A stretch of DNA of 63,919 nt, counting the filler, from Collodictyon triciliatum (lineage: Eukaryota), in assembly GCA_043381765.1 (NCBI GenBank). It is 15 parts of 15 records of this genome, joined end to end, with 100 filler letters (N's around TTAATTAATTAA, not from the genome) between each part and the next. Parts side by side here need not be neighbours in the genome. Positions count along the whole stretch, not along the records: positions 51,248 to 55,405 come from JBHJMP010006437.1; 14 more parts are not named here. One strand, given 5' to 3'. Below are positions 51,950 through 60,039 of the stretch, in pieces. The position numbers and the translations under genes are program-made. Under the pieces are notes generated by a model that did not search any database, was not told where the DNA came from, and was given only the letters and a program-made list of their open reading frames with translations. Numbering within the stretch: the stretch's first letter is position 1; every line of letters starts with the position of its first letter.

Positions 51950-53390
51950 TACAGCCGTACTTACCGAAGCATATGTTAATAGCTTATCAAAATAATATCA
52001 AGGAGCATTTTGTAAAGAGGCTACTGCGCTTTATAAATCAAACATTCCATAAGATGGGAATACTACGGAAGCTATTAAAAAGCCAGAGTTACGAAAAAAA
52101 GTTAGAAAATAGCCATCTTCATGAAACTCGAAATATGGGAACAATATAAAAGAATGGACTAGAATGCATTTGCATCGTATAATCTCCAGTGATATTGTAA
52201 ATGGTATCGAATATGACGTCAAAGTTAATCCAAATAAGTGCATTACGTGTCTGATTTACATGAATCGCATTTTTGAGGACATTGGAACCAAACCGTTTCA
52301 ATCAATCCCTATAAGGACTAACAATATACCATGTCATATTACTCTAGATACTGCATGGTTGATAGATCTATTAGTATCATATGGAAATAATTATTACTGA
52401 AGAATATATCAGGATGCAAAGAGACCCTATGGGATGGCTTCTTTGAAATGAAGAAGAGGGTCTTTCATCAAAGAGGCTACAATTTTAAATACATGATACG
52501 AACAGACGGGTTGGCAGTGTCATTATTGTTTGAGAAGAAAGTTATTTCAAATTCAAAATTACAACTTAATAAAAAAAACTCAATATGTTTATGTAGATGA
52601 ACTTTCCGAAGAGCAGTTATCTTTTTTAGCGAAAAAATATAGTTTGGGTGGACGCAGGCAAGTTTAATTTGGTTTACATGGTGGATAAGGCAGGTAAGAA
52701 ATTACGTTACACAGCACACCAAACAAGACATGATAGCAAATCTCTTGAAAATCACAAAATACTCTTGTGAGAGAAAAGAGAAAAGTACAATGCTTCAGGG
52801 ATATACATGACAACAGATTTACAAAGTGCTATTTCTTTTGGTTGCATGACTTTTGAAGAGAATCAGCAGTTTGAGACATCAAGAGTATCTTTAATCGATT
52901 TAGAGACAGAACTGAGTAAACATAATTCATGCGCAATCGATTATGAAAAATTTCGAAAATATGTGTCTATGAAATCAAGATACCAGATAGAATTATCCAC
53001 ATTTTATGAACAAGTAACTTTTTGAAAGATGAGATGGAGACAGTATGTTCATACAAAAAGAAGTGAAGCATTGTTTATGAACTGAATCGAAGAGACATTT
53101 GGCAAGGATGTTGTACTGGCGCATGGAGACTGGAGTAGAAAATCCCCGATGAAACATTTTGTGCCAACAATCGGAAGAGGATTACGAAAAATGCTATCCA
53201 AACGTTTTGAAACAGTTAGTGCAGATGAATTTAGAACCTCCAAGATGTGTTGCAACTGCGAAAAAGAACTGGAATATATGACACTGAAAGGGAGTTCAAA
53301 AAAGTGTGTAGATATCTGATATGTAAAGAATGCAATCGGTCAGAAAGCAAACAAACTGTATTCTTGACAAGGGACTTCAACAGCGCTAAA
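51950..53390 (+). mobile_element. Decayed Fanzor (eukaryotic TnpB-like RNA-guided nuclease, Fanzor1-like)
   Basis: YQNNIKEHFVKRLLRFIN, YDVKVNP..YMN..PFQSIPIRTNNIP.HITLDT, MIRTDGLAVSLLF, RuvC-I VWVDAGK (D at 52651), GDWSRKSPMKHFVPTIGRGLRKML, RuvC-II DEFRTSK (E at 53227), CCNC...CKEC zinc finger, RuvC-III RDFNSA (D at 53373). Frameshifts and in-frame TGA stops. Confidence 0.9.
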
Positions 53391-53404
53391 AAAAAAAAAA
53401 AATA

Positions 53405-53475
53405 ACAGGCTGTTGGGTCTTTCTTGGCAGCCTTCACCACTTCACAATCTTTGTGAAAAAAGTGGTGAGACCTTG
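53405..53475 (+). ncRNA. Candidate Fanzor omegaRNA scaffold / element right end
   Basis: Hairpin 53408-53432 (GGCUGUUGGG/CUUGGCAGCC), hairpin 53434-53468 (UCACCAC-UUCACAA/UUGUGAA-GUGGUGA) and complementarity GGUCU 53416-20 to AGACC 53468-72, directly 3' of the Fanzor ORF. Confidence 0.45.
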
Positions 53476-53702
53476 GATACTAGCGCACCAGGTTAACCAA
53501 TCGAAAGATGATATGCCCCTTCTAGCAAAACATAAATGATTGATATGAATGCTCAATTTTATTGATAATAACTAACAATACAAGAATCTCATGCAAATAA
53601 GAGGTGATTCGTGGAATCAAACCCTCTTCCTTTTCTTGAATCGAATAAAGGGAAAAAAGGAATGGCTCATGGACGAGATAATGGAACCCCCTTCCTCGCC
53701 CC

Positions 53703-55130
53703 AGATTGTGTGGTTGGAGTTTTTGTTTTTTTAGGAGGAAAAAGAAGAAAAAGAGAATAGAAAGGAGAGAAAGTGTTCTCATAGGCAGACTATTCTACCC
53801 GAGGTGATTGAGCTCCAACGCGATTTCTGGTTGTATTCGAGACTGACAGAAGAGCAAATAAAGTTTTCAGGTCGATGAAAGTACGCACATGGCAGTTACT
53901 TCTCAAATCGATTCTGACGAGTCCTTTCAGCCACCTATCTCAGACAAGGTTTACATCCTATTTCATTCCACAGGATGAGCCTTTTGAAGGGACAACGGGT
54001 CACTTTCCTTGCGTTTCTTGCTGGGCGACTCTGACAAAAAGCGATACATCGTTGTTTGTCTGGTATTATTGGAAGTGGCGCTTGACCGTCCCCTGGTTTC
54101 GGAACCATGCGTAGCCGGCAGTGTACTTTGCTTAACCGGAGTATGGCTACGCGTTTGTGGTTTTAGAAACATACGCTCCTGCTTGCTCGGACTGTCTTTG
54201 GTGTGTGAAGTTCCAAGCTCGGATTCTACTTGTGGTGTTTGCTCTTGGTCTTGCTTCTCGGTGCGACGGGTGGGGCAGGGTAAACGGACTATATTTAGTG
54301 GGCGCTGGTTCTTGTGTTGCCTTCCCTTTAGAGTATCTTTTCGGATAAGTAACGAAGACTGCCTTGATGCCTCCTTTGTTATCCATATTCACGTCAGTCT
54401 GAATGGGTAGTTTAAGGGGGGATTTCTTTCGGGGTTTGGAGATGCGCTGCTCTTGGGTCTTGCGATGTGCGGGCTTGTCGGGTGTTGGCGGTGGAGGGCT
54501 TGAGTGCGAGGATTCTGAAGAGGAACCGAGATTTCCTTCCATGTCATCGTCGCTGTCGCTGTATGCACATATCTGCTGTGAGTCTTATAGACTGGTGTTG
54601 CCTGGCCTTGGCTTCCTTGGCCCCGTTGCTGCTTGTCTGCTTGGCAAGTGTACTCTTTTGCGGTGCTTTTGCTTGTCGTTCGTTATTTGCAACTGGTGGA
54701 TACTCTTTGAGGATGCGCTTTGGACACTTTTTGCCCATGACCGTAAACTTTGCAGGGAGCCGGTTCTTGTGACAAAGAAGCTTCACCACGGCCGTGTCTG
54801 TGAAGAAGCCTTTGTCCTTTTTGATCTCCGCATGGGTCGGTCTGAACGGCTTCAGCTCCTCATGAAGGAGTTGCGGCCACACGTCCAGCGGTAGTTGGTA
54901 GAGCATTACCGAGGTCTCTGTTGGTTTACTTCTGCTGAAGCTGCTTATAATTTCGCTCAAACTTACCTGCTTCTGTTGCAGAAGCTTTCGGGCGTTATCT
55001 GCAGTGCGGAAGGCAATCAGGCAAAGGCCTTCGCTGTCCGGTAAGCGCAATTGGATGGACTCTTCCCAAAGTTTGTTCGCATTCAAGAAGGAGGCGAGCG
55101 CATCGGTGAGCCTGCGGGCCTTGTTCTTGT
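53703..55130 (-). mobile_element. LINE ORF1-like element (RRM-like N-part, low-complexity tail); repeat family copy 1
   Basis: LCLIAFRTADNARKLL...SVMLYQLPLDVWPQLLHEELKPF...GFFTDTAVVKL..LPAKFTVMG resembles L1/Tx1 ORF1. No introns, frameshifted. 3' part is repeated at 55507-55968. Confidence 0.55.
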
Positions 55131-55316
55131 TTCACTTTCATCCGATGTCGCGTCAAAAACTGTAAAACTTCCCTCTTATGCCGAATCCTTCTCTTTTTCG
55201 CCTAATTTGGAGACTCCACAATTGTGATTTTCCTCATTAGGAATCTTATCGGTATATTTATTATCATAAATTATATACCATACTATTCTAGCTTAGGCAA
55301 CAATGTTTTTATGGGT

Positions 55317-55405
55317 TGTTTTATGGGTTGTTTTATGGGTTGTTTTATGGGTTGTTTTATGGGTTGTTTTATGGGTTGTTTTATGGGTTGTTTTATGGGT
55401 TGTTT
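55317..55405. repeat. (TTTTATGGGTTG)n 12-mer tandem repeat at contig end
   Basis: Seen directly, about seven units. Confidence 0.9.
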
Positions 55406-57896: not shown

Positions 57897-58693
57897 ATGG
57901 CGGACTTCCAGCTGGAGCGAATCAAGCGAATCGGAGGGAAATGAAGCCCGGCGGAATCACCCATCAGTGAATGCACGGGTCTGCAGCTGACGGAAGGGAG
58001 CGCAGTGACATACGCCCCAAACGGCGTCTCGATGCTGCTGCGACTCGAGTCCCTGGGGCTGAACGGGAATGCCATTACGTCCATCCCGGAGTGGATCTCG
58101 CTCCTGACGCGCGTGACCAAGCTAGTCTTTGACTCGAATCTGATCAGCAACCTTTCCCGACGAGATCTCGACCCTGACCCAGCTGGGGGACTTGCAGGTC
58201 CACAAAAATCAGATCAGGGCCGTCCCCATCGGCCTGTCCCGCCTGACGCGCCTCACTCTCCTGCGCCTTGATGCAAACATGATCCCAGCAATCCCCGATG
58301 GCATATCCTGCTTGACAAGCCTGGCCTATCTCCGCCTCGACTCAAACAGGGTCTCCTCCATCCCTGATGGGGTCTCTTGCTTACTCAACCTGGAGACATT
58401 CAACATCATGGGTAACCCGGTATGGACTCTTTTCTTCTTGAATATACTGCTCTCTTCAAACATGAACTATGCATAAACTATTTCGCCTCTTATCTCAGAT
58501 TGCAGAGTTACCCAGGGGCATGTCGCTTCTCACAAAGCTCAGCAAGTTCTATGTCATGGATAATACTGGCACGATCTATGCCAAGAGGGCTCCCGGGGGA
58601 ATTACCAATCTGCTCTGCTGGAGCTGCAACGAGGGCGATTACGGTGGATCGACCGTGGCCAGTTCTCTCAGAGGCTTGTCCCTTTATGACTAG
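57897..58693 (+). pseudogene. LRR-only gene with an in-frame TGA and a 1-nt frameshift
   Basis: MADFQLERIKRIGGK*SPAESPISECTGLQL (TGA 57942-44). Extra T near 58155 between DSNLISNL and PDEISTLTQLGDLQVHKNQ. About six LRRs; intron after GNP. Confidence 0.75.
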
Positions 58694-60039
58694 GTTTCAA
58701 ATTAATTCCTTTTTTAATCTTTAATAATCAAATTGCGTTTATAAAAGAAATAAATTAGATTGTTGGCATGGGCGCCAACAGCTAAGTCTGCCGTGAATAA
58801 AAAAAAAAATAAAAGAAATGAATTAAGTAACAAACGTCAGATCATCGATCTCCTCTTTTGAAACCAGACGCTGCTCGTGATACCCCCAAGATGCAACTTA
58901 CTGTGTCAAAGTCTAGTTTAATAAAATCACGTTAATTCATCTATCTTTTACAACAACTTGAGATATCTGAAAGCACCTGATGTCCTCCCCAAGAAAACTA
59001 CTTCTTGCTTTTTAATACCTTTCTTTCTCGGGTTGGTTGTTGTATTTCAATCTTTTGCGCCAGGCCTTATCCCCTTGCGTAAAAAAAAAACTTAACAATT
59101 ATATTCCACTTTTAGACTTCTTTAGATAGAAGTCATTGTTAAAAACTAACGGAATCGTGTACTATCATACATACACACCGTCCAACAACATAATTTGAAG
59201 ACTCTTTGTCTAGAGTCGTAGATTATTATTATATTCATTAGGTTCATAGATTATATCAATATTTGGCCCGACAGATATACCATAGAATCTTTTTAGTTGA
59301 GGTTAGAGTCATAAATTTATATTTTCCAAGATTGAAATATCTTTTTCTGGAATATACTCGACTCATTTCATCCTCGAACCAGATTATTCTCGCGCTGACG
59401 GATGCATTGCGGGATGATGTGTCAAAAGTGCGGCGAGGTATGCCGGGACTAGTGTGCATGGGTGTCGAGGATCGGTGCTGGTCGCAAATTATTGGGGTGG
59501 AGGAGGGGGGAGCGTTTCATACTTTCTTTATTCCACTATTTCATTTGTTCTTCAACTAGTGCCATGGGAAGTGAATCGCAGACGTAAAGAAGAAAAAAGA
59601 AAAAAGAAAAAAGAAAAAAGAAAAAAGAAAAAAGAAAAAAGAAAAAAGAAAAAAGAAAAAAGNNNNNNNNNNNNNNNNNNNNNNNNNNNNNNNNNNNNNN
59701 NNNNNNTTAATTAATTAANNNNNNNNNNNNNNNNNNNNNNNNNNNNNNNNNNNNNNNNNNNNGAAGAAAAAAGAAGAAAAAAGAAGAAAAAAGAAGAAAA
59801 AAGAAGAAAAAAGAAGAAAAAAGAAGAAAAAAGAAGAAAAAAGAAGAAAAAGAAGAAAAAAGAAAAAAGAAAAGAAAAAAGAAGAAAAATTAGAGAAATG
59901 GAAAGCGACATATAATCGATTCATGTTTCCTAGTGGCAGGTAACATGGTATAGTGGAGTTGTATATGTGGGATGCTATGCGATGATATTGTCGGTGAATT
60001 TGAGTTTTGTGCATAGATGTGAACATACATCTGAAAGCA

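What the first reader, a model, noticed from the sequence alone, without database searches (positions are those of the whole stretch)
51950..53390. Fanzor (OMEGA RNA-guided nuclease) fossil with all three RuvC catalytic residues and zinc finger retained
Seen: collinear Fanzor motifs over about 1.45 kb, broken by frameshifts and TGA stops at 52768, 53023 and 53083. D (52651), E (53227), D (53373) and CxxC..CxxC are readable. The N-terminus is missing and there is an extra in-frame segment of about 30 aa near 52790-52890. Established: Fanzors are eukaryotic and giant-virus TnpB homologues guided by a 3' omegaRNA. Inference: this genome hosts or hosted a Fanzor family, and intact copies may exist and could yield a new programmable nuclease.
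Basis: partly seen in the sequence, partly recalled or inferred. Interest (0 to 1): 0.75.

Follow-up and report, generated by a model that had tools for sequence, protein, structure and literature searches.

The report
Dead Fanzor1 nuclease gene copy
This is a broken copy, missing its front end, of a Fanzor1 RNA-guided nuclease gene from a repeated transposon family whose intact relatives lie mostly in giant viruses; it is an ordinary transposon fossil, not a working nuclease.

Summary
Window 51868-53387 (+) is a collinear, decayed Fanzor1 gene. Eight frame pieces match a profile of 19 intact relatives (E 7.6e-33 to 1.4e-4). The read-through RuvC part hits solved Fanzor1 structures (E 2.3e-11). 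I add a fourth TGA at 51937 and at least six frameshifts. About 100 N-terminal residues are missing.

The "extra" 33 residues are a lineage insert shared with the closest intact relative, P0002 (648 aa, 60% identical).

The family is large (3147 representatives). It is common in giant-virus contigs (404 loci). There it sits in units bounded by inverted repeats, often with a DDE transposase, and has a conserved structured 3' RNA. The fossil has no detectable inverted repeat and no significant match to that RNA.

Other public runs hold many diverged copies. All seven close protein fragments come from broken copies. No close intact copy was found. Known kind, low interest.

The parts
51857..51868 (+). 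5' break of the fossil. Upstream lies a different repeat, and Fanzor homology starts here at about residue 100 of the intact relative.
   Evidence: The alignment starts at 51868, which is P0002 residue 103. In one search a contig of the upstream repeat (51522-51857) runs on unlike the window after 51857. A contig of run X4 reaches 51882 from upstream with letters that, by my own reading, code for the residues preceding this point in P0002.
51868..53387 (+). Decayed Fanzor1 coding sequence (REC/WED part, RuvC-I, lineage insert, RuvC-II, zinc finger, RuvC-III).
   Evidence: tblastn of P0002 covers residues 103-608; 316 of 525 aligned residues are identical; eight collinear pieces with E 7.6e-33 to 1.4e-4. 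PDB Fanzor1 hits.
51937..51939 (+).
   Evidence: P0002 has Gly here.
52651..52653 (+). RuvC-I Asp. The motif reads DAGK here and DPGK in the family.
   Evidence: family column D364. It aligns to Asp 383 of SpuFz1 (after subtracting an offset of 394 for the MBP fusion, with Saito 2023 passages).
52768..52770 (+). In-frame TGA stop.
52789..52887 (+). Lineage-specific 33-residue insert between RuvC-I and RuvC-II.
   Evidence: it is full-length only in P0002 among the 19 relatives; it is also present in fragments P0228, P0231, P0232 and P0049.
53023..53025 (+). In-frame TGA stop at an invariant Arg (R487).
   Evidence: Fragment P0228 has Arg here.
53083..53085 (+). In-frame TGA stop.
   Evidence: P0229 has Gly and P0230 has Arg here.
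53227..53229 (+). Relocated RuvC-II Glu in the motif DEFRTSK.
   Evidence: family column E555. It aligns to Glu 541 of SpuFz1. The relocated glutamate is described in Jiang 2023.
53248..53333 (+). Zinc finger, with CxxC at 53248/53257 and CxxC at 53322/53331. A frameshift near 53296 lies between the two pairs.
53373..53375 (+). RuvC-III Asp in the motif RDFNSA.
   Evidence: family column D604. It aligns to Asp 606 of SpuFz1.
53388..53402 (+). A15 homopolymer inside the coding region, about 10 nt longer than the three codons that relatives have here. It breaks the frame.
   Evidence: Sequence, family alignment.
53404..53496 (+). Tentative C-terminal tail and possible remnant of the 3' RNA element (hairpin 53434-53468).
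   Evidence: For: copies in other runs still match here (letter difference at 53495 seen in 5, 6 and 8 contigs). MAFFT lines it up with the viral H1/H2 region. The fold z-score is -2.5. Against: there is no HMM, hhalign or covariance-model support.

Best explanation
Window 51868-53387 (perhaps to 53496), + strand, is a dead copy of a Fanzor1 gene that has lost its 5' end.

Intact members of its family are about 600-660 aa TnpB-like RuvC nucleases. In giant-virus genomes they lie in units of 2.3-5.3 kb bounded by terminal inverted repeats. These units often also carry a DDE_3/HTH transposase of the Tc1/mariner-IS630 type. By analogy with the solved Spizellomyces and Parasitella Fanzor1 complexes, such a protein binds a guide RNA (omegaRNA) transcribed from the 3' end of its own element and cuts matching DNA next to a short motif.

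This copy cannot do that. It lacks about 100 N-terminal residues. It has four TGA stops and at least six frameshifts. It has lost 7 of 66 invariant residues. It shows no transposon end.

Shown here: the homology, the lesions, the retained catalytic residues, the many diverged copies in other public runs, and the inverted repeats and structured 3' element in viral relatives.

Inferred: that the family entered this host lineage as a transposon, perhaps by way of giant viruses, and that the viral 3' element is the omegaRNA.
For: Homology. Profile matches of eight collinear pieces have E 7.6e-33 to 1.4e-4. phmmer of the read-through RuvC part hits Fanzor1 structures 9cf0 (2.3e-11), 8gkh (4.8e-9) and 9cer (6.1e-6). 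The family profile matches the same structures at 2.4e-72, 1.8e-68 and 2.3e-49.

Lesions are listed. 59 of 66 invariant columns are kept.

Family size. 3147 representatives have E<=1e-3 and 537 have E<=1e-30. 404 of 450 candidate stretches in the viral collection encode relatives. Atlas clusters nearest P0002 are 92-100% viral, mostly Nucleocytoviricota.

Mobile unit. A DDE_3+HTH_28 protein lies beside the gene in 5 of 10 viral loci examined. Exact inverted repeats of 18-38 nt occur in 53 of 78 loci, with the right arm 2-94 nt after the stop.

3' RNA. 90.9% of cells are paired against 80.5% in shuffles, and 11 of 18 pairs show changes on both sides. Model R1 finds the element at the gene's end in 77 of 78 viral loci.

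Many copies. In one search, 234, 10, 549 and 750 contig pieces of four runs lie on 51260-55400, most 80-95% alike. At the listed sites of the Fanzor part, up to 10 distinct contigs cover a site in X1 and up to 16 in X4 and X9.

Broken kin. All seven fragments at 73-88% identity are 59-84 aa long.
Against: No genome of the source organism is held, so copy number and intact copies in the same genome are untested. The runs are not shown to be the same species.

Several frameshifts lie in A-runs and could in part be assembly errors. No reads of the source were available to check this.

All four stops are TGA, which is odd for 35% GC DNA and is unexplained.

No inverted repeat like the viral ones lies near the fossil. 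Model R1 has no hit there at E<=10, so the element's ends and its guide RNA are not located.

No transposase remnant and no other viral gene is seen in the window, so the route of entry is inferred only.

Pfam-A as held here does not name the pieces. The best match is Cas12f1-like_TNB at E 0.05, below its cut-off.
Confidence: 0.9

Rival explanations
1. The gene is really intact, or nearly so. On this reading the frameshifts are homopolymer errors of the assembly and TGA is read through or recoded in this organism.
For: Several frameshifts sit in A-runs. All four in-frame stops are TGA, with no TAA or TAG in frame. 59 of 66 invariant residues and the whole catalytic triad are kept.
Against: The first 100 or so residues have no counterpart anywhere in the window. 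Relatives have Gly, Lys or Arg at the TGA sites, and as far as I recall no known code reads TGA that way. An invariant Arg is among the sites hit. Close copies in public data are themselves broken at other places. The A15 run is about 10 nt too long, not 1 nt.
Confidence: 0.03
2. The fossil is part of an integrated giant-virus genome fragment, not a copy of a transposon living in the host.
For: The nearest protein clusters are 92-100% viral. 404 relatives lie in giant-virus contigs. Bao and Jurka 2013 describe virus-integrated Fanzor elements in a brown alga (passages).
Against: A tblastx of the window against 78 viral loci (662 kb) finds nothing shared beyond the Fanzor part, apart from generic LRR hits and a few weak scattered short hits. 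Pfam on 78 window ORFs shows no viral hallmark gene. The flanks are other repeats and LRR ORFs. The sequence is multi-copy and diverged in other runs, as expected for a transposon family.
Confidence: 0.05
3. It is a processed retrocopy: a Fanzor mRNA that was reverse-transcribed by a LINE, which would explain the lost 5' end and the poly-A.
For: The 5' end is missing and an A15 run follows the RDFNSA motif. An endonuclease fragment of the Exo_endo_phos family, which includes LINE endonucleases, lies just upstream.
Against: The A-run sits where relatives have A-rich Lys/Asn codons. Similarity to other copies goes on past it to at least 53495. No flanking direct repeat was found. Other copies extend further 5'.
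Confidence: 0.02

Closest known systems
Spizellomyces punctatus Fanzor1 (SpuFz1, PDB 8GKH) and Parasitella parasitica Fanzor1 (PDB 9CF0)
   Same: The family profile aligns over the whole length of SpuFz1 (positions 3-608, E 1.8e-68). The Asp, relocated Glu and Asp line up with SpuFz1 D383, E541 and D606. A zinc finger lies between the Glu and the last Asp.
   Different: This copy is broken and lacks its N-terminus. Its lineage has a 33-residue insert after RuvC-I. The second metal-site residue N385 of SpuFz1 is Gly in this family. No guide RNA or inverted repeat was located here.
Fanzor1 in Tc/mariner elements of giant viruses and protists (PGv-1, PUl-1, PUl-4; Bao and Jurka 2013, PMC3627910, passages read)
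   Same: The viral relatives found here have the same layout. Some units carry a Mariner-type DDE transposase plus Fanzor1 between inverted repeats, and others carry Fanzor1 alone with the same kind of repeats.
   Different: I did not compare sequences with PGv-1 itself, and TA target duplications were not checked. The window copy has neither a transposase nor recognisable repeats.
TnpB of IS200/IS605 (ISDra2) and Fanzor2 (ApmFz2)
   Same: A split RuvC fold with a zinc finger and a guide RNA from the 3' end of the element (Saito 2023 and Jiang 2023, passages).
   Different: No TnpB or Fanzor2 chain matched the family profile at E<=1. The glutamate is in the relocated position described for Fanzors.

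Membership tests
Fanzor1 | Sequence homology to experimentally characterised Fanzor1 proteins | tested here: met
   the fossil's read-through RuvC part hits 9cf0 (2.3e-11), 8gkh (4.8e-9) and 9cer (6.1e-6); the profile of its relatives hits the same chains at 2.4e-72, 1.8e-68 and 2.3e-49.
Fanzor1 | RuvC triad: Asp (RuvC-I), relocated Glu in the D/N-E-F/Y-x-T-S motif, Asp (RuvC-III) | tested here: met
   D 52651, E 53227 and D 53373 sit at invariant columns. They map to SpuFz1 D383, E541 and D606 through and the Saito 2023 passages.
Fanzor1 | Non-acidic residue (Gly or Pro) at the canonical RuvC-II glutamate position | tested here: inconclusive
   An invariant Gly in the G-D-W motif is kept at 53125. 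Bao and Jurka note a conserved Gly in Fanzor1. I did not align it structurally to a canonical TnpB.
Fanzor1 | Zinc finger (CxxC ... CxxC) in the nuclease lobe | tested here: met
   Cys codons start at 53248, 53257, 53322 and 53331, although a frameshift separates the two pairs.
Fanzor1 | Open reading frame of full length (a working gene) | tested here: not met
   There are four TGA stops and at least six frameshifts, and residues 1-102 are absent.
Fanzor1 | Guide RNA (omegaRNA) scaffold at the 3' end of the element | tested here: inconclusive
   Model R1 finds the relatives' 3' element in 77 of 78 viral loci. It has no hit near the fossil at E<=10. MAFFT shows partial likeness at 53410-53475. 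No RNA data were available.
Fanzor1 | Transposon ends (inverted repeats) around the gene | tested here: not met
   The best matches to four viral repeat sequences near the fossil (17-21 of 33-35 letters) are no better than the best elsewhere in the window (19-23). The only inverted pair spanning the fossil is 72% complementary and has one arm inside the coding sequence.
Fanzor2 / TnpB | Closer sequence similarity to Fanzor2 or TnpB than to Fanzor1 | tested here: not met
   No Fanzor2 or TnpB chain appears at E<=1 in the PDB profile search. The Pfam Cas12f1-like_TNB match is below its cut-off.

The most novel reading that the evidence does not exclude
The fossil marks a cellular lineage into which a giant-virus-borne Tc1/mariner-Fanzor1 transposon jumped and then multiplied. 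On this reading, intact and active copies of this sub-lineage still exist in the host or its relatives. The sub-lineage would be recognised by the 33-residue insert, DAGK in place of DPGK, and a 3' RNA unlike the viral type. That would give a datable case of virus-to-host transfer of an RNA-guided nuclease and a new Fanzor1 subtype to test.
Probability: 0.25. Interest if true: 0.45.

Novelty: new member of a known kind. Interest (0 to 1): 0.22.

Why it matters
Fanzor pseudogenes and multi-copy Fanzor families in eukaryotes and giant viruses have been described since 2013 and were surveyed in the thousands in 2023. One more dead copy changes little.

It has modest value as a pointer. Its lineage, including the intact relative P0002 at 60-65% identity, carries a 33-residue insert not seen in 16 of the other 18 aligned relatives.

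The viral branch of the family offers hundreds of intact genes with defined inverted repeats and a covarying 3' RNA. Those would be better starting points for nuclease testing than this fossil.

Tried and rejected
Pfam-A on the eight frame pieces gave only sub-threshold hits. P0002 itself gave none in the local Pfam copy. The precomputed family PF26935 (DUF8286) is not in that copy.

No whole genome is held for the window. Earlier notes of this scan held nothing.

Scans with P0002 alone found no relative in viral contigs or in metagenome contigs. The DNA of the closest relative could therefore not be fetched, and no comparison of flanks or substitution pattern was possible.

Sequencing runs: no RNA holder was listed, and only small shares (0.12 or less) were found. 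Whether the copy is transcribed is open.

The Atlas search with the alpha-amylase ORF did not place the host. Rfam gave no match in the window at gathering scores.

RNAalifold on the first 3' alignment (A2) found only 5 pairs because MAFFT misplaced the inner stem. I then set the structure by eye on A3. This biases the slid control in its favour.

The weak R1 hit at 3828-3887(-), E 0.15, covers only the repeat-like part of the model. No partner arm was seen among the 25 longest of 106 inverted pairs shown, which were all microsatellite-like, so I dropped it.

The C-terminal tail reading (53404-53493) has no support from the HMM or from hhalign (E 0.067 to an unrelated region).

The retrocopy and viral-island readings were considered and judged unlikely (see rivals).

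No structure prediction or complex prediction was run, because the sequence evidence sufficed.

Full report
**What is there**

The + strand between about 51868 and 53387 reads as a Fanzor-type protein spread over three frames.

I read the frame 52630-53319 through its TGA codons with X. phmmer then matched it to three solved Fanzor1 proteins: Parasitella (9cf0, E 2.3e-11), Spizellomyces (8gkh, 4.8e-9) and Guillardia (9cer, 6.1e-6). Nothing else matched below E 0.8.

A word-indexed search of 5.8 billion proteins gave 20 longer relatives. The best is P0002, 648 aa and intact, 65% identical over the RuvC part.

tblastn of P0002 on the window covers its residues 103-608 at 51868-53387 and nowhere else.

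I built an HMM from 19 intact relatives (A1) and ran it against all 2893 frame pieces of the window. It picks eight pieces. All lie in this stretch and in profile order (positions 129-585 of 634), with E from 7.6e-33 to 1.4e-4. A ninth piece in the same place, 52497-52664, scores E 0.17. The best hit anywhere else in the window is E 0.48. This is far beyond chance.

**Lesions**

My own frameshift-aware alignment to P0002 spans residues 103-632. 316 of 525 aligned residues are identical.

- In-frame stops: TGA at 51937, 52768, 53023 and 53083.
- Frameshifts: near 52111, 52148, 52395, 52580, 52638 and 53296, and in or after the A15 run at 53388-53402.
- Missing part: residues 1-102 have no counterpart in the window.
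- Invariant residues: 59 of the 66 invariant family columns in the covered range are kept. Seven are lost: T140I, L242P, P365A, E391D, R487 to stop, N554D and N610K.

The Cys codons start at 53248/53257 and 53322/53331.

I subtracted the MBP-fusion offset of 394 in chain 8gkh_P. The three acidic residues then line up with D383, E541 and D606 of SpuFz1 (alignments). Saito et al. 2023 name these as metal-binding active-site residues (PMC10432273, passages). The Glu is the relocated RuvC-II glutamate described by Jiang et al. 2023 (PMC10530073, passages).

The 'extra' 33 codons at about 52789-52887 are not damage. P0002 has the same insert. It is absent in 16 and much shorter in 3 of the other 18 aligned relatives. 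Four shorter fragments also carry it.

**The 3' end**

After the RDFNSA motif comes the A15 run. It is about 10 nt longer than the three codons that relatives have there.

Beyond it, one frame runs to a stop at 53494-53496. Copies in other runs still match there. MAFFT lines 53410-53475 up with the viral 3' element. A hairpin at 53434-53468 helps give a fold z-score of -2.5.

Against this, neither the HMM, nor hhalign, nor the covariance model supports the tail. I report it as tentative.

**The family**

An exhaustive HMMER search with P0002 found 3147 representatives at E<=1e-3 and 537 at E<=1e-30.

The profile of relatives matches Fanzor1 structures over the whole length (E 2.4e-72, 1.8e-68 and 2.3e-49). 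No Fanzor2 or TnpB chain appears at E<=1.

Atlas clusters nearest P0002 are 92-100% viral, mostly Nucleocytoviricota, and carry PF26935 (DUF8286).

In the viral contig collection, 404 of 450 candidate stretches encode relatives. 78 loci were kept, at 36-47% identity to P0002.

- In 5 of 10 loci examined, a DDE_3+HTH_28 transposase lies beside the gene.
- Exact inverted repeats of 18-38 nt flank the gene in 53 of 78 loci. The right arm starts 2-94 nt after the stop, and the units are about 2.3-5.3 kb long.

This is the layout that Bao and Jurka described in 2013 for Fanzor1 in Tc/mariner elements of giant viruses and protists (PMC3627910, passages).

**A structured 3' element in the viral relatives**

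I started from the 53 loci with inverted repeats and removed duplicates.

- 46 distinct 3' ends remained, and 39 were under 95% alike.
- I aligned 37 of them. L013 and L063 were dropped because my coordinates ran off their ends.
- I then aligned the core of 35. L006 and L008 were dropped as poorly aligned.

The stop codon falls at 10 different alignment columns. The conservation is therefore not protein-coding.

I set a structure of 18 pairs by eye. 90.9% of its cells are paired, against 80.5 +/- 0.8% in shuffles (0 of 500 reach it) and 37-52% when partners are slid. 11 pairs show changes on both sides. Because I drew the structure from these sequences, the slid control is biased in its favour.

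The covariance model R1 finds the element at the gene's 3' end in 77 of 78 loci, all but L006. I read it as the omegaRNA scaffold. That is an inference; no RNA data were seen.

**Is any of that left at the fossil?**

R1 run with filters off over the whole window gives no hit between 51260 and 53900 at E<=10.

The four viral repeat sequences match no better near the fossil (17-21 of 33-35 letters) than elsewhere in the window (19-23).

tblastx of the window against the 78 loci shares only the Fanzor part, generic LRR hits and a few weak scattered short hits. Pfam on 78 window ORFs shows host-type genes only: alpha-amylase, PEX11, LRR and an Exo_endo_phos fragment.

So this copy stands alone. 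It has no transposase, no recognisable ends and no sign of a viral island.

**Other copies**

No genome is held. One run search gave only small shares.

I laid four runs on 51260-55400 at 80% likeness. This gave 234, 10, 549 and 750 contig pieces, most of them 80-95% alike.

- At the listed sites of the Fanzor part, up to 10 distinct contigs cover a site in X1 and up to 16 in X4 and X9.
- Depth is 95-377 in X4 and X9 over 51816-53483. It is 3-25 just upstream and 7-20 just downstream.
- A different repeat at 53762-55151 reaches 934-3351.
- One contig runs on upstream of 51882 with letters that, by my own reading, code for the residues preceding this point in P0002.
- Several contigs go on unlike the window after 53377 (all).

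The runs are not shown to be the source species.

Among public proteins, seven fragments are 73-88% identical to the fossil. All are 59-84 aa ORFs cut by further stops or shifts, and one shares the Pro-to-Ala change in the DPGK motif. No intact protein closer than P0002 was found in three searches.

**Verdict**

It is a new member of a known kind and does nothing now. The hope of a nearby intact copy is neither met nor excluded.

Two things remain unexplained. All four stops are TGA, although CpG depletion is only mild (0.72 against 0.91 for the window). Some metagenome contigs join 53658 back to 52006 or 52582.

Papers: I saw passages only of PMC10530073, PMC10432273 and PMC3627910. The other papers I saw as search listings only. 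No supplements were read.

Noticed in passing
window 4171-4270, 8439-8538 and so on to 59663-59762: Paired runs of 44 N, 12 bases apart, recur about every 4.26 kb. This looks like masking of the window and not like assembly gaps or biology.
   Followed up: no
window 53762-55151: This is a different repeat with much higher copy number. Depth is about 934-3351 in runs X4 and X9, against 95-377 for the Fanzor part. It holds a 195-aa ORF on the minus strand (54547-55131) with no Pfam match.
   Followed up: partly
window 51450-51857 (-): A fragment of an Exo_endo_phos endonuclease, the family that includes LINE endonucleases, lies at 51472-51693 (E 7.8e-4). It belongs to a separate low-copy repeat that abuts the fossil's 5' break.
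   Followed up: partly
window 51937, 52768, 53023, 53083: All four in-frame stops of the fossil are TGA, with no TAA or TAG in frame, in 35% GC DNA. Relatives have Gly, Arg or Lys at these sites. CpG observed/expected is 0.72 in the fossil and 0.91 in the window. Unexplained; the numbers are small.
   Followed up: partly
window 53623-53761 and 52006/52582: In metagenome run X1, contigs join 53658 back to 52006 and to 52582. Positions 53623-53761 have Fanzor-like depth, while 53484-53622 is low. Other copies may be arranged differently (rearranged, tandem or circular forms).
   Followed up: no
L001-L078, 3' ends of the Fanzor genes (e.g. L003:5822-5951): The giant-virus relatives carry a conserved element of about 130-150 nt with covarying stems. 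It overlaps the end of the gene and runs into the right inverted repeat. The stop codon falls at 10 different alignment columns. It is probably the omegaRNA of this branch.
   Followed up: yes
L002:2641-3678, L003:2648-3676, L012:2476-3492, L018:2948-3976, L006:3133-3552: DDE_3 + HTH_28 transposase genes lie next to the Fanzor gene. In L002, L003 and L012 they sit inside the same 32-35-nt inverted repeats. Other loci have the same kind of repeats around the Fanzor gene alone.
   Followed up: yes
window 14159-15685 (-), 23061-23747 (-), 50649-51147 (+), 57945-58473 (+): Host-type genes. An alpha-amylase ORF has 61% GC, and its in-frame TAA at 14660 lies in a probable intron. There is also a PEX11 ORF. 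Two LRR ORFs on the same strand lie either side of the fossil, so the fossil may sit in an intron or between two LRR genes.
   Followed up: no
window 55283-55400: A tandem repeat of a 12-nt unit, at least 8 copies, runs into an N mask.
   Followed up: no
window 3828-3887 (-): A weak match (19 bits, E 0.15) of model R1 covers only its inverted-repeat part. No partner arm was seen among the 25 longest of 106 inverted pairs shown. Probably chance.
   Followed up: partly
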